Below, in pieces: positions 20,414 through 37,837 of a DNA stretch of 64,000 nucleotides. Where the stretch lies: the IMG/VR virus record IMGVR_UViG_3300045988_092303; one strand, 5' to 3'. Under the pieces are notes generated by a model that was not told where the DNA came from, did no database searches, and worked only from the letters and a program-made list of their open reading frames with translations. The first letter of the stretch is position 1, and each line of letters begins with the position of its first letter. Source of the stretch: a virus. Both the position numbers and the translations under genes were made by a program.

Positions 20414-20428
20414 AAAAGAGGTTGAGAA

Positions 20429-22684: not shown

Positions 22685-22756
22685 CTTATAACAAGCAACC
22701 GAACACTGTTTGAAGTGTTCGCTAACCATCTAAAAACTAATGGTGGAGGTGATAAA

Positions 22757-24098
22757 ATGGGAGCAACCACGATTGATGATCTCCAGATCAAGATTGAAGC
22801 GGATGCGAAAACCGCTTCTGATAAGCTGGATGCGCTTGCTCAAAGCATGGTGAAACTGGCATCAAGCCTGAGCATCAATGTTGGCAAGATGTCCGGTGTT
22901 GCTATTGGACTTAATAGCATTACCAAGGCATCGCAGAATCTCAATTCCAGAAATATTACGACGCTGGCAACTTCTATGGGGAAGGTAGCCGGTGTGGACT
23001 CTGCTCAAATTTCCAGAGTGGCAGGTTCTATGACACAGCTCAAAAACAGCGTTTCCGGTGGTTTTAATACCGATATGACCGGAATAGTGAATGTTGCTAA
23101 TTCACTGTCAAAATTGGGCGGTAAGAACGCTACACAGGGCGCACAGAACCTTGTGCTGATAAAAGATCAGCTTGCTCAATTTGTGCAGGGGATGAACAGC
23201 GTAGGAACATTTACGTTTGACCCAACCGGTCTTACAAACACAATTAAAGCTATTGCGAAACTGGGCGGAAAGACTGCAACGCAGGCAACGGCAAATCTTC
23301 CGAGTATTTCTGCTCAATTACAGAATTTTGTCCGGCAGATGAACCAGATCGGCTCCATGTCGTTTGACAACAAGAATCTGACTGACCTTGTAACGTCCAT
23401 AGGCAGGCTAGGAAGCGTTGCAAGTGGGCGAGCGGTAAATAATATACCTTTGCTTGCAAACAACCTTAAATACCTGTTTGAGACGCTTTCAAAAGCACCA
23501 TACATCAGCCAGAACATTATCCAGATGACTACGGCACTGGCTAATCTGGCACGTACAGGAGCATCTAGTGGTACTGCGGCAAGATCACTGGGGACAAATC
23601 TTTTCTCCTTCTCAAAATCTGCCGGTAACGCAAGTAAGAGTGCATTTTCTTTGGCAGGTGCTATCGGTAAGTTTTACGCAACTTACTGGATGGTTATCAG
23701 AGGATTTGGACTTTTCCGGAATGCTATTGACATCTCATCCGATTTAACAGAGGTTGAGAACGTGGTACGTACCACGTTCGGAAATATGGAGTACAAGGTT
23801 AATGACTTTGTGCAAAACTCCATTCAGCAGTTCGGTATGTCCGAGCTTTCCGTTAAGCAGTATGCCAGTACATTCCAGGCTATGGGAACTGCTATGGATG
23901 TTGGCGGCAAACAGATTGAGAACGCAAACAGGTTCTTAAATGGTGCCACAGACGGATATATTGGATTGTCAGATTCTATGTCCGATGTGTCTTTGAATCT
24001 TACTAAACTGACGGCGGATATGGCATCTTTCTACGACAAAGATCAGGCAGATGTAGCAAAAGATTTACAGTCCGTGTTTACCGGCATGGTTGTTCCGT
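22757..24098 (+). CDS. tape measure protein, exon 1
   Basis: GGAGGTG RBS then ATG 22757. Ala/Ser/Gly-rich helical repeats typical of TMP. Reading frame ends 5 codons after the proposed splice site. Confidence 0.75.
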
Positions 24099-25437
24099 TG
24101 ACTTTAGCGGCTTAACACAGAAATGTGTTTTGAAAAATCCGGAGAACGCAAGCAAAAGCGGTGTCAGAAGAAATTCTGGCTAACGGTAAAACTCTAAATT
24201 TGTATTTGCAATCTTCTTTATTTACTGTGCAAATTCGGTTATAATAATCATGAAAGGATATGGTTATTATGGAATTTGGGCAGGAAAAGAAATATTATGT
24301 ATATGCTTGGTTTTACAAGCAATCAGGAAAATTATTTTATATTGGGAAAGGAACAAAATATAGATATCGTTCAAAGAAAAGAGATAATCATAAACTTGTG
24401 GATATAATAAATTCTTGCGATTGTGACTCTAAAATTCTGGAAGGGAATCTTACAGAAGAAGAAGCCTATGATCTTGAAAAAGAGATGATAAAGAAATATC
24501 GGTCACTTGGACATCCTTTAATAAATATTCAAGATGGAGGGCATCTTCCCCCTAATCACTCTGGCACACATAAAAGTGAAGAAGCAAAAAGGAAGATGAG
24601 TGAGAGTAGAAAAAAATATTTCAAAAATCATCCAGAGGCAAGAATAGAAGCTTCCGAAAGAATGAAAGATTTTTTCTTAACAGAAGAAGGAAAAGAATTT
24701 CAGAAAAAGTCTATAGAAGCAAGAAACAATGATGAGTTTAGAATGAAGTTATCCGAAAAATGTAGGAAAGCAAATAACACAGAAGAATATAAAAATCGTC
24801 AATCCCAAATAATCAAAAAAAGATGGGAGTCTAAAGAATATGCAGATTCCTTTAGCGGAGAGAACAATCCTAATGCTCAGGCGGTTAGACAGTATGACTT
24901 GAGTCATAATTTCATAGCAGAATATCAAACGATGGCAGAAGCAAGCAAAATTACCGGAGTTGGCCAGAGCAAAATTTCCTTGGTTTCAAGTGGAAAAAGG
25001 AAAACAGCAGGTGGATATATTTGGGAATATGCAACTGACAAAAGAATTTCCTACAAGAGAACGAAATCTACATATGATGTAAAAAAAGATAAATCCGCAA
25101 TTCCTATTTTGCAATATGATTTATCTGGAAAACTTGTCTCAGAATACAATAGCGTTGCAGAAGCAGCAAGAATAAATAATTTTCCAAATAGAACTAATAT
25201 TTCCACAAATTTGAGAGGAAGATCAAAAAGCGCATACGGCTTTGTATGGAAATACAAACATGACAATACCGTGCCGAGCCAATTAAAAACCACCAATTGA
25301 GGTGGTTTTTTTATTGGAAGGTGTAACGACTAATTGTAGGGCGGAGATTAGCACCGCTCGAAGTACCGGAAATCCTTTTAGGATTGTGAGATAGTCTAAT
25401 CCCCTAATAAATATCGGGAAACCGAGGGTAGTTAATG
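24099..25437 (+). mobile_element. putative group I intron carrying a GIY-YIG homing endonuclease
   Basis: Joining 24098|25438 restores an in-frame TMP (VVPL-RKYGLDL). 5' splice site after U that can pair with GCGG 24107-24110. Last intron base is G. Boundaries +/- a few nt. Confidence 0.6.
24260..25300 (+). CDS. GIY-YIG homing endonuclease (I-TevI-like) with two NUMOD/IENR-type HTH repeats
   Basis: KYYVYAWFYKQSGKLFYIGKGTKYR GIY-YIG motif. Repeated ...QYDLS(H/G)..(I/V)(A/S)EY.(T/S)(M/V)AEA(S/A)(K/R)I modules. ATG 24269 also possible. Confidence 0.8.
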   Translation: MVIMEFGQEKKYYVYAWFYKQSGKLFYIGKGTKYRYRSKKRDNHKLVDIINSCDCDSKILEGNLTEEEAYDLEKEMIKKYRSLGHPLINIQDGGHLPPNHSGTHKSEEAKRKMSESRKKYFKNHPEARIEASERMKDFFLTEEGKEFQKKSIEARNNDEFRMKLSEKCRKANNTEEYKNRQSQIIKKRWESKEYADSFSGENNPNAQAVRQYDLSHNFIAEYQTMAEASKITGVGQSKISLVSSGKRKTAGGYIWEYATDKRISYKRTKSTYDVKKDKSAIPILQYDLSGKLVSEYNSVAEAARINNFPNRTNISTNLRGRSKSAYGFVWKYKHDNTVPSQLKTTN

Positions 25438-28139
25438 TAAGAAAGTACGGACTCGATTTAACGCAGGCTACTCTGAAAGAGTGGGCAATGAAGAACGGCA
25501 TGGATGCTGATATTAAGTCCATGACGCAGTCAGAAAAGGCAATGTTGCGGTATCAGTACGTCCTAGCAAATACCACGGCAGCACAAGGGGACTTCGCCAG
25601 AACAGCCGATAGCTGGGCCAATCAGGTACGAATTTTGAAGCAGAACTTCCAGCAGTTAGGCGGCATTATTGGTGGGGCACTGATTAACGCATTCAAACCG
25701 TTTTTACGGACTCTGAATTTTGTTATGCAAAAGGTAATCAGTTTTGCAACAATGGTAACAAATGCCCTTGGCGCAATATTCGGCTGGAAATTTGAAGTGT
25801 CCGGCGGTGGTGTAGCTGATGACTGGTCAGATGCGGCAAGTTCAGCTGATGATCTGGCAGACAGTACCGGTAAAGCAGCTGACAATACAAAGAAGATGAA
25901 AACCAACCTTCTGGCTATTGACGAATTAAATGTACTTAACCCGGATGATTCAGATTACGGTTCCGGCGGTTCTGGTTCCGGTGCAGGTGGCGCAGGTGGC
26001 GGTGCAGGTGGTCTGGTTAAGACAGACACTATCTGGAAAGATTTTGAGAGTAATATCAAAGATCTGTATCAGCTTGGTGAGTATATACGTGATGCACTTA
26101 TCGGTGCAATGGAAAGCATTGACTGGGACAGTGTGTATGAAAAAGCACGAAACTTTGGAACTGGCTTAGCACAGTTTCTTAATGGACTCTTTGCTGATGC
26201 TAACGGTATTACGCTTTTTGGAGAAGTCGGAAAAACCATTGCAAGCGCGCTGAACACAGTGATCTATGCAGCACTGGCGTTTGGACAGGAATTTGATTTT
26301 ACGCAATTTGGATATAATATAGCAGATGGAATTAACCATTTTTTTGAAACATTCGATTTTGCTTCTTTAGCTGAAACTCTTAATGTATGGGCAAATGGAA
26401 TTTTAAATGCTGCACAAGAAGCAGTAAGTGCTGTGCATTGGAATGAAGTGTTTAAAGGAATTGGTACTCTGTTTTTCAATTTGGACGCAACTGCAATAGT
26501 CGAGGTGCTTGCACTTGGATTTGCTTGGAAAAATAAAGCTAAAATATTAAAAATGGCTGGTCTTTCTTTAGCAAAAGTGTTTGTTGGCGGAATTAAACTA
26601 TCAGATATTTTAGTATCTATAACAAAATTGAGTTTTGTTCTTCCTGGAACACCTGCTTTTGATGTAATCGCAAGCAGAATTCTCGATACGTTAAGTGATT
26701 GCCTTAGAAACTTGATTCCAGATTGGGCATTCGAAGCATTGAGTAAAATAGGTGCAGGATTAGTACTTGGTGCGGCTGGTGGTTCTTGGCTTCCTGGCCT
26801 TGGAACTATTGCAGGTGCAATTGTTGGAGGAATTGTAGGTGCATTAGATTCGATTGAAATTGATGGACAAAGTATTCTTCAAAATATCTTTGGAAAAATT
26901 TTCAATTTTGATACCACAATGGTGTTTTTTGAATCTGCCAAAGAAAATTTTAAAAAAGGCGGATTATATATAATTCTTGGGATTATTGAAGGAATCGAAG
27001 GTGCTATCAGCCTTTTACTAGAGCCAATCGCAGATGTGTTTACTTCTGTTATCGAATTTTTTTGCAATGTGTTTGGAATCCACAGTCCTGCTGAAACAAT
27101 GAAACCAATTGGAGAAAATATTATCAGAGGTATAATTGTCGGTTTTAGTGAAACAGTTGGAGAATTTCTTGTTGAATTCCAAAGCCTTGCAACTTCTGTT
27201 ACAGATTATTTGAATGAAAATTTAATTGTTCCGGTAGTAGAAATATTCACTATAGCCAGCCAGAATATAGAAAATTTGTTCAGTAATGCGTGGATAGCAA
27301 TACAAGGAATTTGGTCTGTAGTATCAGCATGGTTTAATTCTACGGTGATCGTGCCGACTGTAAATTTCTTTACTACCATGAAAAACACTGTAACTAATCT
27401 TTTCCGATTACTGTGGACAGCTGTTCAAAATATCTGGATTGTTGTATCATCATGGTTTAACAACAACGTTATTGTGCCGACGGTAACATTTTTCACAAAG
27501 TTCTACGAAAAAGTGAAAAAATTATTCTCTGATTTGTGGTCAAATGTGCAGGAAATCTGGAAAGTGGTTTCCGGCTGGTTTAGTGATAATGTTATCACTC
27601 CGGTATCAAATTCATTTTCAGAAGCATGTAAAAATATTGCATCATACTTTGAAAATTTGTGGAAAAATGTGAAAAATGGCGTTGTCGGTGCTATGAACGT
27701 AGTCATTCAATCTGTAGAAAAAGCGGTTAATGGCGTTATTTCTATGCTGAATACGTTGCACTGGGAAATCCCGGACTGGGTGCCGGAGTTTGGTGGAAGA
27801 TCGTTTGGTTTTCATATTAAACCTATAGCTTTGGAAAGAATCCCGATGTATGAAGTCGGAGGTTTCCCGGAGGACGGCTTGTTCTTTGCTAATCACAATG
27901 AAATGGTTGGTCAGTTCTCGAATGGCAGAACTGCAGTAGCAAACAATGAACAGATCGTTGCCGGAATCCGTGAAGGTGTTAAGGCTGCGGTTACGGAAGC
28001 ACTGGCTCCTTATCTGTCAGACATTGCAGATACAAACCGGGAGATTGCCGAGAAGGATGCATCCATCAATGTGGATGGCCGGGAACTGGTTAATGCGATT
28101 AACAGCCGGATTAGCCGGAACGGTTTCAGTTTCACGTAA
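25438..28139 (+). CDS. tape measure protein, exon 2
   Basis: In-frame RKYGLDLTQATLKEWAMKNG... upstream of the first ATG (25488). Gly-rich and hydrophobic TMP-like repeats (NxxIVPTVxFF x4). 4044 nt total when spliced. Confidence 0.75.
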
Positions 28140-28144
28140 AATTA

Positions 28145-28180
28145 AGGCGGTGGGGTAAAACCTGCCGCCTCTTTTCTTTT
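28145..28180 (+). terminator. intrinsic terminator after the tape measure gene
   Basis: AGGCGG...CCGCCT stem plus CTTTTCTTTT. Confidence 0.6.
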
Positions 28181-28231
28181 ACCTTTTTTCGTGGTATAAT
28201 CTGCATATATTTTCATGGGAGGAAAAGTTGT

Positions 28232-28855
28232 ATGGAGAAGAAAGAAACAAAATTATGTAAATATTGCCAGACGGAAATTCCAAAAAAAGCAAAAGTTTGT
28301 CCTAATTGCAAACGCAGGCAGGGCGGAATAGGATGTTTAGGTGTTGTTTTGCTAGTTTTAGGTGTTTTCATTTTTATCGGCTCGTTTGGTGCTTCTATGA
28401 GCAAGGATAAAAATCCGGAAAAGGTAGGAGAAGTTGGAACTGAACTTTCTGAAACTGGAACGCAGACAATTGACAATACTTTCAATGTTGGTGATGTAGT
28501 AGAAACTGATAATTTTAGAATCACCTATGAGTCTGCCGGAGAGTACACAGACAGCAATGAGTTTTTACAGCCGAAAGACGGATATGTATACTGGGAGTTT
28601 AAATTTAAATTTGAGAACATTTCCAATACAGATCAAACAGTTTCCACCATGATGGACTGGGAATGTTATGCGGATAATTCAAAAGCAGATCAGACATGGA
28701 TTGTTGATGATAATGGACTTGACGGAAAATTATCTGCCGGAAGAGAAGCAGAAGGAGCTGTGTATTTTGAGGTTCCCAAAGATGCTGAAAACATTGAACT
28801 TGAATATGATATTAACTTCTGGCAAAGTGACAAAATTATTTTTGTTGGGAAGTAA
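28232..28855 (+). CDS. zinc-ribbon / TM / DUF4352-like membrane protein (moron)
   Basis: N-terminal CKYC...CPNC, one TM helix, Ig-like DUF4352-type domain (FRITYESAGEYTD...YWEFKFKFENISN...GAVYFEVPKD). Own extended -10 promoter (TGgTATAAT 28192-28200) and terminator. Confidence 0.65.
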   Translation: MEKKETKLCKYCQTEIPKKAKVCPNCKRRQGGIGCLGVVLLVLGVFIFIGSFGASMSKDKNPEKVGEVGTELSETGTQTIDNTFNVGDVVETDNFRITYESAGEYTDSNEFLQPKDGYVYWEFKFKFENISNTDQTVSTMMDWECYADNSKADQTWIVDDNGLDGKLSAGREAEGAVYFEVPKDAENIELEYDINFWQSDKIIFVGK

Positions 28856-28863
28856 CAGTTTTT

Positions 28864-28892
28864 GGGGCAGAGAAATCTGCCCTTATTTTTTT
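28864..28892 (+). terminator. intrinsic terminator
   Basis: GGGCAGA-GAAA-TCTGCCC hairpin plus T-run. Confidence 0.7.
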
Positions 28893-28903
28893 GTAAAAAA
28901 GTG

Positions 28904-28932
28904 TTGACTAAATGTCATGACAATTATATAAT
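28904..28932 (+). promoter_or_regulatory. near-consensus promoter
   Basis: TTGACT, 17 nt, TATAAT. Confidence 0.7.
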
Positions 28933-28963
28933 ACAATTAAATCAAATGAAAGGAGCGGATGAA

Positions 28964-29143
28964 ATGTCACCTAGAAATGGTAGACCACCATCAGAAAACC
29001 CAAAATCTCATAGAGAAAGTTTTCGATTATCTGATGATGACATGATGAAGTTAAATTATTGCATGGAAAAAACCGGAATGAAGAAAACGGAAGTCATCAG
29101 AAAAGGCATTGATTTGGTCTATAATAAACTAAAAAAGGAGTAA
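28964..29143 (+). CDS. ribbon-helix-helix transcriptional regulator
   Basis: AGGAG RBS then ATG 28964. HRESFRLSDDDMMKLNYCMEKTGMKKTEVIRKGIDLVY fits an RHH fold. Confidence 0.6.
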   Translation: MSPRNGRPPSENPKSHRESFRLSDDDMMKLNYCMEKTGMKKTEVIRKGIDLVYNKLKKE

Positions 29144-29258
29144 CCTACGTGTACTTGGCGGTATCAGGGTTACTCCAATGGGACACATCCACAAGGGATA
29201 TGCACTAATACTGTAGCATACCTCTTGTGGAAAATCAATATTTCACAGGAGGTTTTTT

Positions 29259-29423
29259 ATGGTAACAGAACAGTACAAAGCATTATTATCTCAACTTACA
29301 GAGGAATGCGATAACGCATTATATCTTCGTAGCGCAGTTATTTTCATGGCAACACTGAATGACAAGGAACTGACGGAATCTGATGGTGTTCTCAAAATTA
29401 CGAAGAAAGGCGGTGCTCATTGA
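29259..29423 (+). CDS. small hypothetical protein (54 aa)
   Basis: AGGAGG RBS; below the track cutoff; stop overlaps the next ATG. Confidence 0.4.
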   Translation: MVTEQYKALLSQLTEECDNALYLRSAVIFMATLNDKELTESDGVLKITKKGGAH

Positions 29424-29575
29424 TGGAAGAGAACAGAAAGAAAATTCACGAGATGGTTGACTGCATGGACACTGACGGGAGGTTAGCATACTGGGAGACA
29501 TTCATGAGACGCTGGTTAGAATATTGGGGGCATGGATGCTTGGACAACATGGGAAAGAAAGGCGGTGTGCAGTAA
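29423..29575 (+). CDS. small protein, tandem paralog 1 (50 aa)
   Basis: MEENRKKIHEMVDCMDTDGRLAYWETFMRRWLEYWG; AAAGGCGGTG RBS. Confidence 0.45.
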   Translation: MEENRKKIHEMVDCMDTDGRLAYWETFMRRWLEYWGHGCLDNMGKKGGVQ

Positions 29576-29697
29576 TGGAAGAAAACAGAAAGAAATTGCA
29601 TGAAATGGTTGACTGTATGAACACCGAGGAAATGCTTGCCTACTGGGAGACTTTTATGAGGCTCTGGCTGGAAGAGTGGGGAGGTGACTGTTTATGA
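29575..29697 (+). CDS. small protein, tandem paralog 2 (40 aa)
   Basis: MEENRKKLHEMVDCMNTEEMLAYWETFMRLWLEEWG, near-duplicate of the preceding ORF. Confidence 0.45.
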   Translation: MEENRKKLHEMVDCMNTEEMLAYWETFMRLWLEEWGGDCL

Positions 29698-29828
29698 GTT
29701 ACAAAGAAGAGATTGTTAAGATGCTGGAATGTATCAGCAATGAGCGGATTTTGAAACTCATTTACGGATTTGTCCGTAGCGGTTACAGAGAGGACAGAGC
29801 AATGAAAGGCGGTGCCAGAAATGACTGA
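29694..29828 (+). CDS. small protein (44 aa)
   Basis: MSYKEEIVKMLECISNERILKLIYGFVRSGY; same architecture as the 38872 ORF. Confidence 0.4.
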   Translation: MSYKEEIVKMLECISNERILKLIYGFVRSGYREDRAMKGGARND

Positions 29829-30570
29829 TATTCAGATTTTTAATAACCCGGATTTTGGAGACATTAGAACCGTTGAGGTTGACGGAAAACCATATTTTGT
29901 TGGAAGAGACATTGCAAAAGCATTAGGATATAGTGACCCGCACAAAGCAGTATCCCGGCACTGTAAGGGTGGGATGAAATATCCCATAGGGGTGCAAACT
30001 GGTACGGGAGCTGATGGAACACCGATAATACAGGATATAGATATGCTTATCATTTCAGAAGGTGATGTTTACAGACTCATTATAAAGTCGCAGTTGCCGG
30101 CAGCAGAAAAGTTTGAAGGATGGGTAATGGATGAAGTCCTCCCGGCAATTAGGAAGAACGGCTCTTACACCATGCCGATCAGCACCAACGACAAGATCAT
30201 GCTTCTTGCGCAGGGACATATGGAGTTGCAACAGGAGGTTGACAGCATTAAGAAGGACATGGAGAGTCTGAAAATGGATTTACCGATTCTTCCAGTAGAG
30301 GAAGACCGGATAACATCCGCTGTGAAGCGCAAGGGACTGGCTGTGATGGGCGGTAAGACCTCTAATGTGTACCGGGATAAATCCATCCGCCGGAAGGTGT
30401 ATCAGGGCATCTATGCGAATTTGAAGTACAACTTCCAGATCAAGACCTATCGGGCATTGAAACGGAGTCAGGTGGACAAGGCTATTGAGATCATCAATAA
30501 CTACCAGCCGCCGTATGTTCTGGCAGAACAGATAGACTCTGCAAATGCACAGCAGACCTTGATATTCTAG
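29821..30570 (+). CDS. Bro-N domain antirepressor-like protein
   Basis: IQIFNNPDFGDIRTVEVDGKPYFVGRDIAKALGY Bro-N motif; C-terminal ORF6C-like region. Confidence 0.75.
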   Translation: MTDIQIFNNPDFGDIRTVEVDGKPYFVGRDIAKALGYSDPHKAVSRHCKGGMKYPIGVQTGTGADGTPIIQDIDMLIISEGDVYRLIIKSQLPAAEKFEGWVMDEVLPAIRKNGSYTMPISTNDKIMLLAQGHMELQQEVDSIKKDMESLKMDLPILPVEEDRITSAVKRKGLAVMGGKTSNVYRDKSIRRKVYQGIYANLKYNFQIKTYRALKRSQVDKAIEIINNYQPPYVLAEQIDSANAQQTLIF

Positions 30571-30593
30571 GGAAAAACTGCTATAATAAAATC

Positions 30594-30744
30594 AAATTCA
30601 GCCGAATCCATCAGCTCCGCCCGGCTTGTCGTTGAGGGGAGAACGGGGCGAAAAGGATAGGACGAATCGAGCAAGGACGGCAAACATTTTGAGAAGCACG
30701 CTCACTGGACATGGTAGAGATACTGTGTCTGGTGGGCGTTTTTT
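30594..30744 (+). ncRNA. conserved 5' leader RNA, copy B, ending in an intrinsic terminator
   Basis: Extended -10 TGcTATAAT (30579-30587). Terminator CGCTCACTGGA (30699-30709) / TCTGGTGGGCG (30728-30738) plus TTTTTT. Blocks shared with 1475-1634. Confidence 0.55.
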
Positions 30745-30775
30745 GTTTGTCTGAAAAATGGGAGGAAAGGGAAAA

Positions 30776-31498
30776 ATGGAAGAAACGAAGATTTTTAAGA
30801 GCGAAGAGTTTGGAGAAGTTAGAACTGCTGTGATCGACGGTGAAGCATGGTTCGTTGGCAAGGACGTTGCGGATATTCTTGGGTACCAGAATGGAAGCAG
30901 GGACATCAATGCACACGTAGACGATGAAGACAGAAGAATTATCAAAAGTACCGAAACGGTATCTTTGGATATTCCAAGTAGAGGAATGCTTTTAATCAAT
31001 GAGTCAGGTCTCTACAGCCTTATTCTTTCAAGTAATATGCCGAACGCAAAGAAATTCAAAAAGTGGGTGACATCAGAGGTACTGCCGTCCATCAGAAAAC
31101 ATGGCATCTATGCCACTGACAATGTGATCGACAACATCCTGAATAACCCGGACTTTGGCATTGAGCTTCTTACAAAGCTGAAAGAAGAACGTGCAGCAAG
31201 GGTAGAAGCTGAGAAAAAGAATGCGATCCTTACCCATGTGAATAAAACATATACCATGACCGAGATTGCGAAGGAACTGAATCTGAAATCTGCCGTGGAG
31301 CTGAACAAAATCCTGGCGGATAAGAAGATCCAGTACAAGGTGAATGGAACATGGGTACTTTATTCCGATTATAGCAATCTTGGGTACGAAGATATCAAGC
31401 AGGAAGTCCTTGACAACGGAAGGGTGATTTATCACCGGAAGATCACACAGATGGGACGGGCATTTATCCTTGGACTTTTTGAGGACAAGGCGTCATAA
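30776..31498 (+). CDS. Bro-N + KilA-C/ANT type phage antirepressor
   Basis: IFKSEEFGEVRTAVIDGEAWFVGKDVADILGY Bro-N motif. C-terminal TMTEIAKELNLKSAVELNKILADKKIQYK...WVLY resembles an antirepressor C-domain. Confidence 0.75.
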   Translation: MEETKIFKSEEFGEVRTAVIDGEAWFVGKDVADILGYQNGSRDINAHVDDEDRRIIKSTETVSLDIPSRGMLLINESGLYSLILSSNMPNAKKFKKWVTSEVLPSIRKHGIYATDNVIDNILNNPDFGIELLTKLKEERAARVEAEKKNAILTHVNKTYTMTEIAKELNLKSAVELNKILADKKIQYKVNGTWVLYSDYSNLGYEDIKQEVLDNGRVIYHRKITQMGRAFILGLFEDKAS

Positions 31499-31647
31499 AG
31501 ATTAGCAGTAGTCAGTGGTTTATGGAGGTTCGACTCCTCCGGCTGCTTTTACAACTGGATAGGGTAGCTCCCGAAGAGCGGAAATCCTACACCGCCTGCC
31601 AGTTGTTTTTCATAAATGTAGGAGTCTATTTGTAGGAGGTAGAGTAT

Positions 31648-32382
31648 ATGGAAAGAAAATCAAGAAAATTAGCAACAGAAAAGCAAATTTTATATGCAAA
31701 TGCAATTGCAAAATCCCTTGAAATTGATTTGTGTTTTAAAAATGGTGATCCATATTATACGGTTTCAAAATTTATTAAAGAAAATGAAGAATACTATAAA
31801 GAAAATATCAAAATGGCAACACCAAGACAAATTGATTATGCAAATGCTATTTCTGACGAACTTAAAATCGAAAAGAAATTTGATGAAACTGCTCTTGCAA
31901 AAGATGTTGCAAAATTTATAAGCGATCATGGAGAGGAATTTGCCCTGAATTGTGCAAAAAAGAAATATTTGGAAGAAAAAGTTGGATATATAAATAAAAA
32001 TGGAGAATTTATTAGTTTTCCATTTGAATGTTGCGAATTTATGAGCGAAAACTTATATGGAAAACATGGAGTATATGCATTTTTAGATGGTTCTGAAAAT
32101 GTAGTCTATATAGGAAAATCCATAAATCTCGCAGATAGAATAACAGGTTCATACCATGAAAGACAAGATGGAAGAATCGAAAAAATCATGTATTACACAG
32201 ATGAAAGTATGGCAAATGCTCATGTTTTGGAACTTATTTTGATAAACAAATATAAACCGATTTTTAATACGGATTGCAAATCTGATGATGATTTTACTTT
32301 ATTTCCATGCGATATAAGCATTGAAAAAGATTTTAAAGTTCTTCCGTATTTTTCAAATAAATGTAAGGAGGTAAATGCATGA
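31648..32382 (+). CDS. GIY-YIG domain protein with duplicated N-terminal motif
   Basis: C-terminal HGVYAFLDGSENVVYIGKSINLADR...ELILINKYKPIFN (GIY-YIG). N-terminal repeats KQILYANAIAKSLEI / RQIDYANAISDELKI. Confidence 0.65.
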   Translation: MERKSRKLATEKQILYANAIAKSLEIDLCFKNGDPYYTVSKFIKENEEYYKENIKMATPRQIDYANAISDELKIEKKFDETALAKDVAKFISDHGEEFALNCAKKKYLEEKVGYINKNGEFISFPFECCEFMSENLYGKHGVYAFLDGSENVVYIGKSINLADRITGSYHERQDGRIEKIMYYTDESMANAHVLELILINKYKPIFNTDCKSDDDFTLFPCDISIEKDFKVLPYFSNKCKEVNA

Positions 32383-33389
32383 ATTACAAAGAGCTTTTAT
32401 ACAACAAAGATGCTGCATTAACCTTCTTTCCTAGACTGGCCGTAATTTTTAATAAATACGATGACATTGAGTCAGAGAAAGTTTTTCGTGAGACAGGGGA
32501 AAAAAGAAAATCTGATAAAAGTGGTCTTTCAAAAGCAATTGTTATTAACCAGCTTAATTACTGGTTAGGTATTAACCAGAAGAGTGGTAACAATTTTAGA
32601 GATGGTTATTACTGGACGTATAATACATATCAAATGTGGGCGGATAATGACTTCGTTTTTTGGTCTGCTGATACCGTAAAACGGGTATTTACTTCCCTAG
32701 AAAAAATCGGAGTTGTTGTTTCTACGTCAGCATATAACAAACTTAGACTTGATAAAACAAAGTGGTACAGGATTGATTATGATAGATTGCAGGAAGTTAT
32801 TGACACCGTAGAAGAAGACGAAAAAACACGAGCAGTGCAATGTGCACCGTCGAGGAGGGCAATGTGCACCGTCGAGGAGGGCAATGTGCACCATAGAGGA
32901 GGGCAACTTGCACCGAGCAATACCATAGACTACACAGAGACTTCTTCAGAGACTACATCAGAGAGTATGAGAGTATGCTCTTTTTCAGCGGAAAAAGAGG
33001 TCTCTCCCACATCTGAAGGTGGTACGTTATCTCCTACGGTCACAAAAGCCATTGACGAGGCAATGACGGAAGAAGGAGAATCTCCAGATAGCTTCTGTAG
33101 AGCCGAATTGAAGGATATAGCTGAATACTTTGTAAGCGAATATGCCAGAACGCAAGGAAAGCCGCATAAGCCACTCACAAGACCGGCTATTAGCAATATC
33201 GTATACAATTACTTGCATCAAGACGAGGACGAATACGGAATCATGGATGATGTGTGGACGCTAGACCAGTACATTCCGTTAATTGATATGTATATGCAGA
33301 CGAACTACCGGGAGGGCATAGAAAAGAGCCTGTCCCACTTTATGTCCGGTTCTATCCGCCGGAATTTAAAAGCAAAATTGATAGAGTAA
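32379..33389 (+). CDS. replication initiator / replisome-organizer-like winged-helix protein
   Basis: N-terminal AIVINQLNYWLG...YWTYNTYQMWADN..FWSADTVKRVFTSLEKIGVVV pattern of DnaD/Rep-organizer N-domains; internal 22-bp iterons. Confidence 0.55.
   Translation: MNYKELLYNKDAALTFFPRLAVIFNKYDDIESEKVFRETGEKRKSDKSGLSKAIVINQLNYWLGINQKSGNNFRDGYYWTYNTYQMWADNDFVFWSADTVKRVFTSLEKIGVVVSTSAYNKLRLDKTKWYRIDYDRLQEVIDTVEEDEKTRAVQCAPSRRAMCTVEEGNVHHRGGQLAPSNTIDYTETSSETTSESMRVCSFSAEKEVSPTSEGGTLSPTVTKAIDEAMTEEGESPDSFCRAELKDIAEYFVSEYARTQGKPHKPLTRPAISNIVYNYLHQDEDEYGIMDDVWTLDQYIPLIDMYMQTNYREGIEKSLSHFMSGSIRRNLKAKLIE
32837..32916. repeat. 3.6 tandem copies of a 22-bp iteron (candidate origin)
   Basis: GCAATGTGCACCGTCGAGGAGG x2, GCAATGTGCACCATAGAGGAGG, GCAACTTGCACCGA. 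The period is not a multiple of 3. Confidence 0.8.
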
Positions 33390-33487
33390 GAATCATACCG
33401 GGTGCCGACGACGTAGGCATCCGCTAACCAGAAAAAGATACTGGCAGACTGCCGGAGGGCACTTCTGCCGAGAACGGAGGTGCCTGT

Positions 33488-33901
33488 ATGGCAACAAAAA
33501 TAGTACGAGCAGGTTCCGGCCTGTCTTCTTTCTTGAATGTGAACGGGGTAGATTTCCCGTGCCCTAGGGTGGGATTTTCGTATATTATCAGCACAACGGT
33601 AAATGCAGGGCGAAATGCGAACAATGCGGTTATTGGCCAGAGAGTAGGAAGAGACATTTTTAAACTGAACAATTTGGAATGGGCAATGCTGGATGCAGAA
33701 ACATGGCAGCGGATGTTAAAAGCAATTAAACCATTTTATGTGCCGGTAACTTTTGAAGATTATCGGACAGGTCGTCCGATCACCATTACAATGTATCCGG
33801 GAGACAGGACGGCAACACCATTATTTGCAGACCCGGATTCTCACATTGTTACAAAGTATGAAAACTGCAAATTCAATCTGATTGATGCCGGTTGGGAGTG
33901 A
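33488..33901 (+). CDS. tail component (possible distal tail protein)
   Basis: First structural-looking ORF after the island; precedes the large tail protein. Confidence 0.35.
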   Translation: MATKIVRAGSGLSSFLNVNGVDFPCPRVGFSYIISTTVNAGRNANNAVIGQRVGRDIFKLNNLEWAMLDAETWQRMLKAIKPFYVPVTFEDYRTGRPITITMYPGDRTATPLFADPDSHIVTKYENCKFNLIDAGWE

Positions 33902-33907
33902 TAGATC

Positions 33908-36211
33908 ATGCAAAATGTAAGTGCAGCATATAAAAAGGCCATGCGACAACCGATGCGGAACCGTGGCTATATAACTGCCCGAATCGGAATTATCAGTTCC
34001 ACAGCGCAGGATAACGTAGTTGCAAAAGAATCTGATAATGATTTTGCTTACTTTGCGAATATCACGGAAGTGTTCAAAGATAACACAGTAAGCCGGGTAT
34101 ATGCCACCATGGAGCAGGATTTCGCAAAGGTTGACGGAACCATGTACTTCCTTCCAGAGGAATACGACGGGTATGACTACTACAATAATGGTCTGGTGAC
34201 GAATGAGCTGCTAAGTCCCATGTACATTTCCTTTGACGGAAACATTGCGGATATTAAGGGACTCACAATTGATTTTGGGGAATACTACCCGACTTCATTT
34301 ACGGTTCAGTCTGATAACGGTACGAAAACATATGAAAATGCAGGGAAAATATTTGTTACCGAGGATACATTTGATGCGGTAACGTTCCTGCGGATAACAC
34401 CTGTGACTATGGTTAATGGACAGGGAAGGATGCGAATTTTACAGTTTACCTGCGGAATTTCCAATACTTTCTCAAATAAGCAGGTGAAATCATTCACATA
34501 TAAAGATTACGTATCGTCTGTATGCGAGTCCCTTCCGAGTCAGGATATGACTTTGACGGTAGATAATCAGGATTTATATTATAACCCGGATAACCCGGAA
34601 TCAGCCGTTGCATACATGGAGCAGGGGCAGGAAATGAAAGTTTCCTTCGGATATGACATTGACGGAGCTGGAACGATTGAATGGGTGCCGGAAATAACCA
34701 CATTCCTTAAATCGTGGTCGGCGACCGATACAGAAGCTAAATTTACTATGGTTGATGTATTTAACTGGAAACTAAATGGAACGTATTACAAGGGTCTGTA
34801 CCGCACGGAGGGCATATCTCTGTATGATATGGCGTTGGATGTTTTGACAGATGCCGGCATGAAGCCAGAAGAATATGTGATCGACCCGTATTTGCATGAT
34901 GTCAAGGTATACAATCCTATGCCCGCGGTGAAACATTCAGAGGCCTTGCAGATCATATCGAATGCCGGACGCTGCGTTTTAAGCGTTGACCGGAAAGGAA
35001 GGGTACTGATTAGATCATCTTTTATCCCGGATATGACTTCCAGTGACGGAATAGATTTGCTGTATCCAAGTAATTTCCTGTATCCGGGAGAAGATGTACT
35101 ACCGATAGGGGACAACGGGACGGCAGCACAAACAGAATTCAGCCATGCAGAAAATGTTCTGAAATCAGGAAAGCGGACAGCATATGCAATGTTCAGTAAC
35201 GATTTTTCCGTGGTAGATGGAACGGTGATGTTTCTTCCAGAGTCAGAAGCGGATTATGTTGATACGACTGGATATGTCAGTGATAGCATAGCGGATGAAA
35301 ACGGGGAGTTTCAGGACATACCAAAAATTATCATCGAATTGGAGTCTGGATATATTTGTTACGGTTTTGCTATTCAATTCCGGAATGTGGCACCTAAAGA
35401 ATACCACGTAGTAACCTACTATCAGGAAGAACAGGTGCAGGATGTAACGGTCGAAAATCCTGGATTATACAGCCAGTACACAGAACAGCTTGACCGGTTC
35501 GACGTCATGGAGATTGTGTTCAAGAAAGGTTACCCAAATGCCAGAGTGGCGGTTGACTCGGTATTGTTCGGAAATGCAACAGATTACACGCTGTCAAGAG
35601 ATTACAATTTGAAGGGTTCACCGACTGCAACAAGACAAGAAAGAGTCAAAACGATTGCAGTTAAGCGAAGCCTTTACAGAAATTCTACATTGGCAATTAA
35701 AGAATTATCGTCAGAAGAACTCACGCTGGCCGGAACAGAGATCACGAAAACGATTCATTTTAGCAAAGCGTCATACGGTCTTACAGTGTCCATAGAAGAG
35801 GGGACTGCAACGGCAACGATTACTGCCAGCAGCAACTACTTCGCAGATATTAAGATCACAGGAGCAGCCGGCGAAAAAATCAGATATTCTGTCAAGGGAT
35901 ATGAATATGTTGTGGATGAACTGTATTACAGAGTCAACCACAATGACACAGGAATTGAAAAAGCATGGAGCAATCCTCTAATCAGCACCGAAGAGCTGGC
36001 AAAAGATCAGGAAGAATGGCTTGCATCCTACTATCTGGGTGATGTAGATTATCAGATCACATGGAATGGAGACCCACGGACGGATGCGAATGATCTTTTC
36101 TATCTGGAATTAAAAGAGAGAGACAACACGATGATACGAGCCTACCAGAATGAGTTGAAATATAGCTCCGGATGGTCAGGCACTTTAAAGGCAAGAAAGG
36201 TGGTGCTGTAA
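33908..36211 (+). CDS. large tail-tip / baseplate-like structural protein
   Basis: 767 aa; position after TMP and small tail protein. Confidence 0.45.
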   Translation: MQNVSAAYKKAMRQPMRNRGYITARIGIISSTAQDNVVAKESDNDFAYFANITEVFKDNTVSRVYATMEQDFAKVDGTMYFLPEEYDGYDYYNNGLVTNELLSPMYISFDGNIADIKGLTIDFGEYYPTSFTVQSDNGTKTYENAGKIFVTEDTFDAVTFLRITPVTMVNGQGRMRILQFTCGISNTFSNKQVKSFTYKDYVSSVCESLPSQDMTLTVDNQDLYYNPDNPESAVAYMEQGQEMKVSFGYDIDGAGTIEWVPEITTFLKSWSATDTEAKFTMVDVFNWKLNGTYYKGLYRTEGISLYDMALDVLTDAGMKPEEYVIDPYLHDVKVYNPMPAVKHSEALQIISNAGRCVLSVDRKGRVLIRSSFIPDMTSSDGIDLLYPSNFLYPGEDVLPIGDNGTAAQTEFSHAENVLKSGKRTAYAMFSNDFSVVDGTVMFLPESEADYVDTTGYVSDSIADENGEFQDIPKIIIELESGYICYGFAIQFRNVAPKEYHVVTYYQEEQVQDVTVENPGLYSQYTEQLDRFDVMEIVFKKGYPNARVAVDSVLFGNATDYTLSRDYNLKGSPTATRQERVKTIAVKRSLYRNSTLAIKELSSEELTLAGTEITKTIHFSKASYGLTVSIEEGTATATITASSNYFADIKITGAAGEKIRYSVKGYEYVVDELYYRVNHNDTGIEKAWSNPLISTEELAKDQEEWLASYYLGDVDYQITWNGDPRTDANDLFYLELKERDNTMIRAYQNELKYSSGWSGTLKARKVVL

Positions 36212-37075: not shown

Positions 37076-37837
37076 ATGGGAATGATTTTAATGCCGGGCG
37101 GCGGTGGTGGAATTGATCTTGACCTTGTTACTGCGCTTGCAGGTGATGTACTTAGCGGAAAAGTAATTGTTGGGGCGGATGGGGAACCAATAACAGGAAC
37201 GCTTGCTTTAACAGGAGATGCAGGTACGGGAGATGTACTGTCCGGGAAGACGTTCTACAATGCCGATGCAAAAACAAAGCGTTCTGGAACAATGGCGAAC
37301 AGAGGCGCGTTGAACTGGTCTGGAAGTAATACAACAAAATCTGTGGATGCCGGATATTATAGCGGAGGTACACTAGATAGTAGACCATCGTATAATTCTG
37401 GACGTACTCAAGGACAGAATGATGTAAAAAATAGCCCGAATTCATACGGGCTATATACAAAGGCGCAGTATGATGCGAATTATAATAACGGCTTAAACGC
37501 AAAAGTAAACAATTTATCAGTCAAACAAGAACAATTTAATAACAAGACAACAGATTCGAGCAAGAAAGCCTACTTCAATGTTGCAGCAAATACAGGAAAA
37601 CACTATGTAGTAGTAAGTGTCGTATCGAGAGCAAATACTACGGCGGATACGCTAAAACATTCTCTTGCTGTAACAAATGGATCTATAAGTCAATTACAAC
37701 AAATTTTAAGCAACTCAAGTACCTGCGTTACTGTTTGGCACTTAGAAAAAACGAATTCATCTGCCGTTTCTACAATAACTGTTACCGCTGGAAGATCAGA
37801 TGCTGATGCATTTATGCTTGTAATTAAATTAACTTAA
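37076..37837 (+). CDS. tail fibre protein with GDVLSGK repeats
   Basis: AGDVLSGKVIVGADGEPITGT / GDVLSGKTFYNADAKTKRSGT repeats typical of phage fibre proteins. Confidence 0.55.
   Translation: MGMILMPGGGGGIDLDLVTALAGDVLSGKVIVGADGEPITGTLALTGDAGTGDVLSGKTFYNADAKTKRSGTMANRGALNWSGSNTTKSVDAGYYSGGTLDSRPSYNSGRTQGQNDVKNSPNSYGLYTKAQYDANYNNGLNAKVNNLSVKQEQFNNKTTDSSKKAYFNVAANTGKHYVVVSVVSRANTTADTLKHSLAVTNGSISQLQQILSNSSTCVTVWHLEKTNSSAVSTITVTAGRSDADAFMLVIKLT

What the first reader, a model, noticed from the sequence alone, without database searches (positions are those of the whole stretch)
28181..33487. A 5.3-kb regulatory/replication island inserted between the tape measure and distal tail genes
In siphoviruses the distal tail gene normally follows the tape measure directly. 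Here the two are separated by several elements:
- A self-contained moron. It encodes a zinc-ribbon/TM/DUF4352-like membrane protein (28232-28855) with its own extended -10 promoter and terminator.
- A near-consensus promoter (28904-28932) driving an RHH regulator.
- Four tiny ORFs.
- Two Bro-N antirepressor-like genes.
- A GIY-YIG protein.
- A replication-initiator-like gene containing 22-bp iterons.

The only origin-like element I can see in the whole window is in this island. Other replication-associated genes (the Phg_2220_C protein and the helicase-loader-like protein at 59.6-60.6 kb) and the recombination genes (43-50 kb) are far away. The island has no integrase. It could be a hitchhiking satellite-like or plasmid-like replicon, or a relocated early module.
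Basis: partly seen in the sequence, partly recalled or inferred. Interest (0 to 1): 0.65.

Follow-up and report, generated by a model that had tools for sequence, protein, structure and literature searches.

The report
Mosaic regulatory-replication zone splitting tail genes
In this gut-bacterium (probably Lachnospiraceae) temperate phage, the gap between the tail tape-measure gene and the tail-tip genes has filled with independently swappable cassettes (a membrane protein, antirepressor genes, two conserved RNA elements and a replication initiator with its origin), so it is a resident, lineage-wide part of the phage and not a hitchhiking mini-replicon.

Summary
Twelve more distant relatives show what the junction looks like elsewhere. 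In 6 of them the tape-measure gene (TMP) is followed directly by the 33488 homologue, so the block is an insertion in evolutionary terms.

It is not one element:
- All close relatives carry a block at this junction, with composition matching the rest of the genome.
- The contents vary cassette by cassette, and the closest relative lacks 28900-30572 and 31576-32366 with clean junctions.
- There is no integrase, flanking repeat or packaging gene.

Three parts form a conserved backbone:
- X (30573-30757) is a promoter, structured leader and strong terminator. It always lies upstream of the tail-tip genes.
- An int-alpA RNA (31552-31618) precedes this Rep family in every context examined.
- The Rep gene carries iterons that change with its N-terminal DNA-binding domain.

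In one sublineage the block X, int-alpA, Rep, tail tip and fibres is inverted and abuts the repressor gene.

Best reading: a P22 immI-like antirepressor region plus the phage's own origin cassette, lodged at a terminator-marked operon boundary. Function is inferred, not shown. Interest is moderate.

The parts
28145..28180 (+). Intrinsic terminator directly after the TMP stop codon (28139). It marks the operon boundary.
   Evidence: 10-bp stem with 7 GC pairs, followed by a T-run. The block 28140-28235 is conserved in all type A and type C relatives. Equivalent terminators follow the TMP in outgroup phages.
28192..28200 (+). Extended -10 promoter, TGgTATAAT, for the first island gene.
   Evidence: Read from the sequence. 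It lies inside the conserved block 28140-28235.
28232..28855 (+). Zinc-ribbon, transmembrane, DUF4352 membrane protein (moron cassette).
   Evidence: PF11611 at 3.2e-17. Present in L004, L158 and most type C loci (not L008); absent in L001-3, L005 and L014.
28864..28893 (+). Terminator after the DUF4352 gene.
   Evidence: sequence.
28904..28932 (+). Near-consensus sigma-70-type promoter with the palindrome TGTCATGACA (28913-28922) in its spacer. The palindrome is a candidate operator.
   Evidence: 11 of 12; the palindrome is the only exact copy in the window.
28964..29143 (+). Small RHH-type repressor (59 aa).
   Evidence: phrog_876 at 3.8e-16. MobC_2 at 1.2e-4, below threshold. The AAGGAG ribosome-binding site lies 8 nt upstream of the ATG at 28964.
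29220..29253 (+). Hairpin that includes the ribosome-binding site of the next ORF. It is part of a conserved 77-bp non-coding piece (29185-29261).
   Evidence: 96% identity in L001 and in L007 (type B).
29259..29828 (+). Four small ORFs: 29259-29423, 29420-29575, 29575-29697 and 29694-29828. The middle two are tandem paralogues.
   Evidence: 152-bp repeat at 29403-29681, 78-79% identity; 90-98% amino-acid identity in relatives.
29812..30570 (+). Antirepressor-like protein, Bro-N plus ORF6C.
   Evidence: E 3.4e-23 and 3.4e-31; phrog_463 at 1e-69.
30559..30757 (+). Element X: promoter (TTGATA-17-TGcTATAAT, 30559-30587), a structured leader of about 110 nt, and a 19-bp-stem terminator (30698-30739 plus T-run).
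   Evidence: (z=-3.6). It occurs once per contig in 19 IMG/VR contigs. In every locus mapped it lies upstream of the tail-tip genes, with no more than three genes in between.
30758..31498 (+). Second antirepressor-like protein, Bro-N plus ANT/KilAC.
   Evidence: E 6.7e-29 and 1.3e-13. Degraded in L158. No full-length homologue in the other relatives, which show only Bro-N-domain similarity to their own Bro gene.
31514..31548 (+). tRNA-like minihelix (acceptor stem AGCAG/CTGCT plus T-arm GGAGG-TTCGACT-CCTCC) abutting int-alpA.
   Evidence: single copy. In L134 a real tRNA-Leu occupies this position.
31552..31618 (+). int-alpA RNA motif (Rfam RF02996), followed by a conserved ribosome-binding site. 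It is the 5' leader of the Rep cassette.
   Evidence: 47.5 bits against a gathering score of 35.8; compensatory changes in all three helices; found directly upstream of Rep homologues in every context examined.
31648..32382 (+). GIY-YIG-like protein, probably a free-standing homing endonuclease inserted between the leader and Rep.
   Evidence: below threshold. Absent from all relatives examined. L158 lacks 31576-32366 with clean junctions.
32379..33389 (+). Replication-initiator-like protein: N-terminal winged-helix domain (about residues 1-154), a disordered linker, and a conserved helical C-terminal domain (about 214-336).
   Evidence: PHROGs. AlphaFold2 pLDDT 76; 37-40% identity to the DnaD-like or replication-initiation proteins of cultured Listeria, Bacillus and Staphylococcus phages.
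32829..32915 (+). Four 22-bp iterons (consensus CGAGGAGGGCAATGTGCACCGT) encoding the linker. This is the candidate origin.
   Evidence: each N-domain allele in relatives has its own repeat array at the same position.
33488..36211 (+). Tail-tip genes: a 137-aa Dit-like protein and a 767-aa Tal-like protein. They are the first genes after the island.
   Evidence: Position directly after the TMP in 6 of 12 outgroup loci. phrog_1194 and phrog_13879 have no known function. hhalign gives 97% probability to the DUF6711-position protein of L137.

Best explanation
The 5.3 kb is a resident, mosaic accretion zone at a natural operon boundary, the terminator after the TMP gene. It is found throughout a clade of temperate siphophage-like viruses that probably infect Lachnospiraceae.

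It holds three layers:
1. A membrane-protein moron (DUF4352), probably expressed from its own promoter.
2. A P22 immI-like secondary control region. A small RHH repressor probably autoregulates a consensus promoter through the palindrome in its spacer. That promoter drives small ORFs and a Bro-N antirepressor. A second Bro-N/ANT antirepressor follows. These antirepressors would inactivate the CI-like repressor (37824-38591, no S24 peptidase domain detected).
3. The phage's own origin cassette. A structured int-alpA leader precedes a lambda-O-style initiator whose iterons lie inside its own gene. The initiator would work with the Phg_2220_C protein and the G39P-like helicase loader encoded at 59.6-60.6 kb.

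Element X (promoter, leader, terminator) heads the transcription unit that runs through Rep into the tail-tip and fibre genes. It probably gates that unit by terminator read-through.

Shown here: the anatomy, the conservation and mosaicism, the co-variation of iterons with the N-domain, the linkage of int-alpA to Rep, and the inversion. Inferred only: all protein activities, the promoter use, and origin function.
For: **Position and history**
- An island of 1.8-5.4 kb sits between the TMP and the 33488 homologue in the type A and B contigs mapped. In the type C loci the same junction is rearranged.
- The outgroup shows TMP and Dit adjacent in 6 of 12 loci. Inserts of 1.2-4 kb occupy the same junction in 5 others, and three of those inserts carry an antirepressor, RHH or DUF4352-like gene.
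- A terminator follows the TMP even in the phages with no insert.

**Not foreign and not a unit**
- Composition is indistinguishable from the rest of the genome.
- The cassettes vary independently. L158 joins 28900 directly to 30573 and lacks 31576-32366. DUF4352, the RHH-Bro segment, Bro-ANT and GIY-YIG each have their own distribution among relatives.

**Conserved backbone**
- X, int-alpA, the Rep C-terminal domain and the Rep-Dit spacer are 89-97% identical across types A and C.
- The minimal form, seen in L011, is CI, X, int-alpA, Rep, Dit.

**Rep is an initiator-type protein with its own origin-like repeats**
- It matches several PHROG initiator families and cultured-phage initiators.
- Alternative alleles carry an HTH_36 domain.
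- The iteron array changes with the N-domain allele, while the C-terminal domain stays about 85-96% identical in the alleles where only the N-domain is swapped.

**Rep fits the phage's own replication system**
- The window's other replication genes lack an origin-binding domain. The Phg_2220_C protein matches phrog_428 positions 223-313, while Rep matches positions 98-219.
- Homologous G39P-like loaders in other phages are preceded by full-length winged-helix initiators.
- Eight of the 12 contigs that carry Rep at the tail locus, including every one of 56 kb or more, also have this loader module; the other four are shorter contigs. None of the six type B contigs has it.
- No other initiator, helicase or primase was found in the window.

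**The tail-tip unit is autonomous**
- In six independent contigs from two samples, X, int-alpA, Rep, Dit, Tal and the fibres are inverted relative to the head-TMP operon and follow the CI gene.

**Published analogue**
- P22 immI (mnt, arc, ant plus sieA) lies inside the late operon just before the tailspike gene and is highly variable among P22-like phages (PMC8022706).
Against: - No function has been tested.
- The RHH assignment rests on one PHROG family. Sequence search of the PDB found nothing.
- The Foldseek matches of Rep are only generic winged-helix hits with E of 0.04 or worse. The C-terminal domain has no match.
- There is no clear AT-rich unwinding element next to the iterons.
- Type B relatives have X and antirepressors but no Rep, so Rep is not required at this site.
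- The structure of X is supported by only two covarying pairs, both from one lineage.
- If late transcription is antiterminated, as in P22, X's promoter may be irrelevant to tail-tip expression in the window's orientation.
- The Dit and Tal identities are positional only.
Confidence: 0.65

Rival explanations
1. Hitchhiking element. The block, or its int-alpA-Rep-ori core, is a satellite-like or plasmid-like replicon that parasitises the phage and replicates or moves on its own.
For: - It carries an initiator with iterons, regulators and a possible homing endonuclease.
- A tRNA-like fragment abuts int-alpA. From memory, not checked here, that RNA motif is named for its neighbourhood to integrase and alpA genes.
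- The int-alpA-Rep cassette occurs in different genomic places in different phage lineages.
- The Rep N-domain is 49% identical to that of the L137 lineage, whereas the structural proteins of that lineage are only 23-32% identical. This suggests the cassette is exchanged horizontally.
Against: - There is no integrase, no second att-like copy, no flanking repeats and no packaging or capsid-remodelling genes.
- Composition is identical to the phage.
- It is never present or absent as a unit.
- Rep is fixed next to Dit in both orientations.
- Rep co-occurs with a loader module that lacks its own origin-binding domain.
Confidence: 0.07
2. Passive cargo. The junction is simply a tolerated dumping ground. 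The Rep gene and antirepressors are non-essential morons or decaying remnants, and the phage replicates from another origin, for example the AT-rich repeats at 839-980.
For: - Type B relatives lack Rep.
- Bro-ANT is degraded in L158, and the Rep frame in L003 appears interrupted.
- The contents turn over quickly.
- Another repeat-rich non-coding region exists at 839-980.
Against: - The Rep C-terminal domain, int-alpA and X are 85-97% conserved across lineages whose Tal protein is only 65% identical.
- The iterons co-vary with the N-domain.
- No alternative initiator was found in the window.
Confidence: 0.15
3. Invertible host-range module. The block X-Rep-Dit-Tal-fibres (30.57-37.84 kb) is flipped by the phage's Hin-like invertase (2822-3394). 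On this reading the island merely borders a programmed inversion.
For: - The block is found in both orientations among relatives.
- A small serine invertase is encoded in the window.
- The C-terminal parts of the fibre genes are variable.
Against: - No inverted repeats flank the block.
- The right end overlaps the stop codon of the CI gene.
- The two orientations belong to lineages whose Tal proteins are 65% identical and whose flanking content differs, so this looks like an old rearrangement and not a switch.
- No pair of near-identical contigs differs only in orientation.
Confidence: 0.06
4. Assembly chimera at 28.2 or 33.4 kb.
For: None found.
Against: The junction of the TMP end with 28140-28235, and the Rep-Dit junction (32961-33486), are contiguous in 15 or more independent contigs from several samples.
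Confidence: 0.01

Closest known systems
P22 immI secondary immunity region (mnt-arc-ant, with sieA) between gene 16 and tailspike gene 9
   Same: - It lies inside the late structural gene block, just upstream of the receptor-binding or tail-tip genes.
- It combines a membrane-protein gene, small RHH repressor(s) and an antirepressor.
- It is largely its own transcription unit and is highly variable among relatives (PMC8022706).
- The window has a DUF4352 membrane protein, an RHH gene with an operator-like palindrome, and two Bro-N antirepressor-like genes, one with the ANT/KilAC domain.
   Different: - The window is a siphophage-like genome of a Gram-positive host, whereas P22 is a podovirus of Salmonella.
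- No sequence relationship to Arc or Mnt was shown.
- No sar-type antisense RNA was identified.
- The zone also holds a replication initiator with its origin and two conserved RNA elements (X and int-alpA), which immI lacks.
Lambda O / ori-lambda and SPP1 G38P / oriL type initiators (origin iterons inside the initiator gene); DnaD-like 'replisome organiser' proteins of Firmicutes phages
   Same: - An N-terminal winged-helix DNA-binding domain, an iteron array in the part of the gene that encodes the linker, and a conserved C-terminal domain.
- N-domain and iterons are swapped together among alleles.
- A G39P-like loader is encoded in the phage.
   Different: - The gene is 26 kb away from the loader, wedged between TMP and tail-tip genes.
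- It is preceded by an int-alpA RNA leader.
- The Phg_2220_C domain that usually sits in the same protein family (phrog_428) is encoded separately.
- Binding and origin activity are untested.
Phage satellites (SaPI / PICI type)
   Same: Rep with an iteron origin, next to regulators, within a few kb.
   Different: No integrase, no att sites, no packaging or capsid-redirection genes, no unit-like presence or absence, and the same composition as the phage.
Lambda PR'-tR' (6S RNA) late leader, or the P1 c4 immunity RNA, as working models for X and int-alpA (recalled from memory, not tested)
   Same: - X has a strong promoter followed about 150 nt later by a strong terminator, ahead of late or antirepressor genes.
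- int-alpA is abutted by a tRNA-like element. From memory, the P1 c4 RNA is matured by RNase P.
   Different: - No Q-like or other antiterminator was identified.
- No antisense target was found.
- There is no sequence or Rfam relationship.
Mu G / P1 C invertible tail-fibre segments
   Same: Tail-tip and fibre genes are found in both orientations among relatives, and a Hin-family invertase is encoded in the genome.
   Different: The block is 5-7 kb of whole genes plus Rep, no flanking inverted repeats were found, and the orientations separate diverged lineages.

Membership tests
P22 immI-type secondary immunity region | Located within the late structural genes, immediately upstream of the receptor-binding or tail-tip gene(s), and variable among relatives | tested here: met
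   P22 description from PMC8022706.
P22 immI-type secondary immunity region | Small RHH repressor(s) acting on an operator in the antirepressor promoter | tested here: inconclusive
   phrog_876 at 3.8e-16, with Pfam below threshold. A unique palindrome lies in the promoter spacer. No PDB match by sequence. Binding was not tested.
P22 immI-type secondary immunity region | Antirepressor protein that inactivates the primary repressor | not testable with these tools
   Domain level only: Bro-N plus ORF6C, and Bro-N plus ANT. The CI-like protein has an HTH_26 domain and no detected S24 peptidase domain.
P22 immI-type secondary immunity region | Antisense RNA (sar) opposing ant | tested here: not met
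   No convergent promoter or sRNA was recognised. X is co-directional and has no antisense target.
Iteron-type phage initiator with the origin inside its gene (lambda O / SPP1 G38P-like) | N-terminal DNA-binding domain homologous to phage replication initiators | tested here: met
   phrog_6493 at 5.9e-28, phrog_11233 at 1.8e-20, phrog_428 and phrog_9773. tblastn to cultured-phage initiators. Winged-helix model.
Iteron-type phage initiator with the origin inside its gene (lambda O / SPP1 G38P-like) | Three or more direct repeats inside the gene, specific to the DNA-binding-domain allele | tested here: met
   Four 22-bp repeats. Allele-specific arrays sit at the same position in L001, L008, L011, L030 and L137.
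Iteron-type phage initiator with the origin inside its gene (lambda O / SPP1 G38P-like) | Adjacent AT-rich unwinding region | tested here: inconclusive
   The 5' flank is 32-37% GC against 41% for the genome. There is no sharp AT-rich block.
Iteron-type phage initiator with the origin inside its gene (lambda O / SPP1 G38P-like) | Supports initiation of replication | not testable with these tools
   Needs a replication assay or marker-frequency data.
Phage satellite / PICI-like element | Integrase and att sites, or other defined ends | tested here: not met
   No integrase in 28.1-33.5 kb. No flanking repeats. The tRNA-like fragment is single-copy.
Phage satellite / PICI-like element | Present or absent as a discrete unit; composition distinct from the helper phage | tested here: not met
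   Cassette-wise variation. Composition is identical.
Phage satellite / PICI-like element | Packaging-hijack genes (small terminase, capsid-size redirection) | tested here: not met
   None among the 10 island proteins.
int-alpA RNA (Rfam RF02996) | Covariance-model score above the gathering threshold, with the three-helix structure kept by compensatory changes | tested here: met
   47.5 bits against 35.8. L137 scores 57.3 bits and L011 51.7 bits. Compensatory changes in P1, P2 and P3.
GIY-YIG homing endonuclease | GIY-YIG catalytic domain | tested here: inconclusive
   Pfam 20.6 bits, below the 22.6 cut-off, though the motif is visible in the sequence. The presence/absence polymorphism has clean junctions.

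The most novel reading that the evidence does not exclude
In this phage clade, and apparently separately in the distant L137 lineage, the replication origin and initiator sit at the head of the tail-tip operon. They carry a structured int-alpA leader that may be matured by tRNA-processing enzymes. Together these parts form a self-contained, orientation-independent module: X, int-alpA, Rep with its origin, Dit, Tal and the fibres. The module would couple origin firing or initiator expression to expression of the host-range genes, and it would move or invert as a unit.
Probability: 0.2. Interest if true: 0.65.

Novelty: new variant of a known kind. Interest (0 to 1): 0.45.

Why it matters
- **Operon structure.** In a widespread group of human-gut phages that probably infect Lachnospiraceae, the supposedly fixed tape-measure-to-tail-tip gene order is broken at a terminator-marked boundary. 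That boundary behaves like P22's immI site, as a hotspot that collects immunity and antirepressor genes. Here it also holds what looks like the phage's only origin-binding initiator.
- **Annotation.** Gene callers and synteny-based annotators will mislabel such regions as foreign islands or assembly errors.
- **int-alpA.** This orphan Rfam motif now has a concrete, testable association, as the 5' leader of one family of phage replication initiators, often directly after a tRNA or a tRNA-like element.
- **Element X.** A second conserved RNA-like element is a candidate gate for tail-tip gene expression.

None of this overturns a principle. It refines how modules are arranged and exchanged in uncultured temperate phages.

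Tried and rejected
- **Database searches.** Megablast against INPHARED and PLSDB found no relative. The only hit was a 64-nt intron-like piece. No cultured phage is close; the best Tal match is 22% identical.
- **Structure of the 137-aa Dit-like protein.** The model was unusable at pLDDT 33, so its Dit identity could not be tested.
- **Structure of Rep.** Foldseek returned only generic winged-helix hits. These include the staphylococcal plasmid RepA N-domain at E 0.2-0.5. Nothing matched the C-terminal domain. A profile search of PDB sequences found only a weak winged-helix hit.
- **RHH and CI-like proteins.** Sequence searches of the PDB gave nothing useful.
- **The 18-bp x 17 array at 50810-51119.** Rejected as a second origin, because it encodes YdcK-type beta-solenoid repeats.
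- **Invertase sites.** A search for inverted repeats around 28.9 and 37.8 kb, and near the invertase gene, found none convincing.
- **Targets or extra copies of X and int-alpA.** A search for antisense targets or second copies in the window found none.
- **Second copy of the tRNA-like fragment.** None was found, so there is no att-like repeat pair.
- **Rfam on the island.** A permissive-threshold search added nothing for X. The group I intron in the TMP gene was not detected by Rfam.
- **Literature.** No description of this arrangement was found.

Full report
**What the window is.** It is a temperate, siphophage-like genome.
- Structural genes: large terminase 8846-10654, portal, major head protein 14340-15440 and major tail protein 18220-18720.
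- The tape-measure protein (TMP) is in two pieces, 22682-24115 and 25488-28139 (phrog_1535, E=1.7e-54).
- After the island come a 137-aa and a 767-aa protein and fibre-like genes up to 37837.
- A leftward CI-like HTH protein is at 37824-38591.
- Rightward early genes follow. They include a third antirepressor, SbcC-like and RecT proteins, HNH endonucleases and methyltransferases. A Phg_2220_C protein lies at 59558-60040 and a G39P-like loader at 60040-60591.
- A large serine recombinase is at 61499-62845.
- Relatives are found in Lachnospiraceae and Clostridia metagenome-assembled genomes.

**Observation.** Each item in the finding was confirmed at its coordinates.
- A terminator (28145-28170) directly follows the TMP stop.
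- An extended -10 (28192-28200) precedes the zinc-ribbon, transmembrane, DUF4352 gene, which ends in a second terminator (28864-28883).
- The promoter at 28904-28932 matches 11 of 12 consensus positions. It holds the window's only exact TGTCATGACA palindrome in its spacer.
- An RHH-type repressor follows (phrog_876, 3.8e-16), then four small ORFs, two of which are a 152-bp tandem duplication.
- Next come Bro-N/ORF6C and Bro-N/ANT proteins and a GIY-YIG-like protein that is below the Pfam threshold.
- Last is an initiator-like protein (PHROG matches down to 6e-28) with four 22-bp iterons at 32829-32915.
- 'The only origin-like element' is overstated. An AT-rich non-coding array lies at 839-980, and the 18-bp x 17 array at 50.8 kb is coding.

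**Composition.**
- Island GC is 0.402, against 0.409 for the window.
- GC and AT skews are identical to those of the whole window.
- The tetranucleotide distance to the whole window is at the 10th percentile of all 5.3-kb windows, and at the 0.8th percentile when scored strand-specifically.
- Nothing marks the island as foreign.

**Close relatives.** No cultured phage or plasmid is close. IMG/VR and ENA contigs fall into three arrangements.

| Type | Tal identity to window | Arrangement |
|---|---|---|
| A | 96-97% | TMP, variable 2.8-5.4 kb island, Rep, Dit, Tal (same as the window) |
| B | 55-75% | TMP, 1.8-3.7 kb with RHH and antirepressor-like genes but no Rep, Dit |
| C | 65% (six contigs, two samples) | The block X, int-alpA, Rep, Dit, Tal, fibres is inverted; its start abuts the 3' end of the CI gene and its end converges on DUF4352-TMP |

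DNA comparison shows a conserved backbone at 89-97% identity: 28140-28235, X (30572-30756), int-alpA (about 31552-31650), and 32961-33486. Everything else comes and goes.
- The closest relative with the same Rep allele (L158, Rep 94% identical) joins 28900 directly to 30573. It has a decayed Bro-ANT gene and lacks 31576-32366, the GIY-YIG gene.
- The block is therefore a mosaic of at least six independently varying cassettes and not one element.
- Both island junctions are contiguous in many assemblies, which excludes a chimera.

**Outgroup.** Twelve prophage or phage loci with 56-81% identical Dit were examined.
- In six of them the TMP is followed by Dit within 26-71 nt.
- Five have inserts of 1.2-4 kb at that junction, and three of these carry an antirepressor, RHH or DUF4352-like gene.
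- One has the Dit-Tal-fibre block upstream of the TMP.
- In five of the six loci with no insert, a strong hairpin plus T-run terminator follows the TMP stop.
- The TMP|Dit junction is therefore an old operon boundary that has become an insertion hotspot.

**Rep and the origin.**
- The protein has a confident winged-helix N-terminal domain, a disordered linker encoded by the iterons, and a helical C-terminal domain (AlphaFold2, pLDDT 76).
- Fold search gave only generic winged-helix matches.
- The N-domain is 37-40% identical to proteins of cultured Listeria, Bacillus and Staphylococcus phages. Those are annotated as replication initiation protein or DnaD-like helicase loader.
- Among relatives the N-domain is swapped. 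One allele is HTH_36. The C-terminal domain stays 85-96% identical in those alleles.
- Each N-domain allele has its own repeat array at the same place, just 5' of the conserved junction. L137 shows the same pattern. This is the lambda-O pattern of specificity domain plus cognate iterons.
- Rep matches phrog_428 positions 98-219, and the separate Phg_2220_C protein matches positions 223-313.
- In distant phages the G39P-like loader is preceded by a full-length winged-helix initiator. In this clade it is preceded by a 152-160-aa protein with only the Phg_2220_C domain.
- Eight of the 12 Rep-carrying contigs, including every one of 56 kb or more, also have this loader module. None of the six type B contigs does.
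- No other initiator, helicase or primase was detected in the window.
- I infer that Rep is the phage's own origin-binding protein. This is not shown.

**int-alpA.**
- Rfam places an int-alpA RNA at 31552-31618, scoring 47.5 bits against a gathering score of 35.8.
- A covariance model built from the hits finds the element directly upstream of Rep homologues in every context examined:
  - the window clade;
  - the distant L137-139 lineage, ordered TMP, pRha, a small ORF, int-alpA, Rep, several genes, a Dit homologue and a 1090-aa protein;
  - L134-136, where Rep sits in an ordinary early position before the terminase;
  - L030, L066 and L067.
- All three helices show compensatory changes.
- The element ends in a U-run and a conserved ribosome-binding site.
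- In the window the GIY-YIG gene has taken the slot immediately after this leader, and Rep follows with overlapping stop and start codons.
- A tRNA-like minihelix (31514-31548) abuts the element. In L134 a genuine tRNA-Leu does.

**Element X.**
- Positions 30559-30757 comprise TTGATA-17-TGcTATAAT, a leader of about 110 nt, and a 19-bp-stem terminator.
- It is conserved from the promoter to the terminator, while the sequence to its left differs between lineages.
- It occurs once per contig.
- In every locus mapped it lies upstream of Dit, with no more than three genes in between. In L145 and L146 it is only about 430 bp from Dit.
- Covariation support is thin: two adjacent pairs, from one lineage.
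- The X-to-fibres block works in either orientation relative to the head-TMP operon. X is therefore the simplest candidate for that unit's promoter and gate. This is inference.

**Mechanistic reading.** The nearest described system is P22 immI. That region holds RHH repressors, an antirepressor and the sieA membrane-protein gene. It lies inside the late operon just before the tailspike gene, is largely separately transcribed, and is very variable (PMC8022706). I propose three functional parts:
1. An immI-like antirepressor region made of the RHH gene, its operator-like palindrome and the Bro-N proteins. It would act on a CI-like repressor that has no detected S24 peptidase domain.
2. A DUF4352 moron.
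3. The int-alpA-Rep-ori cassette, all lodged at the TMP terminator.

**Rivals.**

| Rival | Confidence |
|---|---|
| Hitchhiking replicon | 0.07 |
| Passive cargo | 0.15 |
| Invertase-driven switch | 0.06 |
| Assembly chimera | 0.01 |

**Verdict.** The block was inserted, and it is regulatory and replicative. It is nevertheless a resident mosaic zone and not a hitchhiker. It is a new variant of known kinds and of moderate interest (0.45).

Noticed in passing
window 24101-25442 (homing endonuclease gene 24260-25300): The TMP gene is interrupted by a 1342-bp insertion that carries a GIY-YIG homing endonuclease. L158 has an uninterrupted TMP with clean junctions, and the exons rejoin in frame (473 + 15 + 883 codons). 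Positions 25378-25441 match, at 89%, a 64-nt piece found in about 200 SPO1-like Listeria, Enterococcus and Staphylococcus phages. This is very likely a group I intron, although Rfam did not call it.
   Followed up: partly
window 31514-31548; L134 7485-7632: A tRNA-like minihelix (acceptor stem plus a perfect T-arm) sits immediately 5' of the int-alpA RNA. In L134 a real tRNA-Leu abuts an int-alpA copy. This suggests the RNA is matured by tRNA-processing enzymes, or that recombination occurs at tRNA genes.
   Followed up: partly
window 2822-3394: A Hin/Gin-type small serine invertase (Resolvase domain plus HTH, phrog_125 at 3e-63) lies between the terS-like gene and a tRNA cluster. No invertible segment or flanking inverted repeats were found.
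   Followed up: partly
window 839-980: A non-coding AT-rich array of about eleven phased 12-bp units (TATATAAAAATT) with overlapping palindromes lies upstream of the terS-like gene. It could be a pac site, a bent-DNA site or a second origin-like site.
   Followed up: no
window 50616-51356: The 18-bp x 17 tandem array encodes a YdcK-type beta-solenoid repeat protein (PF18836, 2.6e-27). It is not an iteron origin.
   Followed up: yes
window 51769-52302: A Tad3-family Thoeris inhibitor (PF25185, E=1.4e-37), an anti-defence gene in the early region.
   Followed up: no
window 19697-22632; L002 6599-7579: An amidase-SPOR lysin and a collagen-like protein sit between the tail-chaperone genes and the TMP. 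The collagen-like gene pair is absent in type C relatives. In L002 a 40% identical copy lies inside the island instead, so it behaves as a mobile moron.
   Followed up: partly
L106 9195-19318: In one Lachnospiraceae genome the Dit-Tal-fibre block lies upstream of the TMP, directly after the amidase. This is another relocation of the tail-tip module.
   Followed up: no
window 4405-5642: A cluster of six tRNA or tRNA-like genes (Gln, Ile, Tyr, Ser, one undetermined, Ser). L134 shares head and packaging genes with the window. There, the int-alpA-Rep cassette sits right after the equivalent tRNA cluster, which may be where the cassette came from.
   Followed up: partly
window 29185-29261: A 77-bp non-coding piece with a hairpin that sequesters the ribosome-binding site of the next ORF. 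It is 96% conserved in L001 and in L007, a type B locus, where the flanking genes differ.
   Followed up: no
L003 8641-9482: The Rep reading frame in L003 appears interrupted. Only a 93-aa ORF covers the conserved C-terminal domain. This may be a pseudogene or an assembly error.
   Followed up: no
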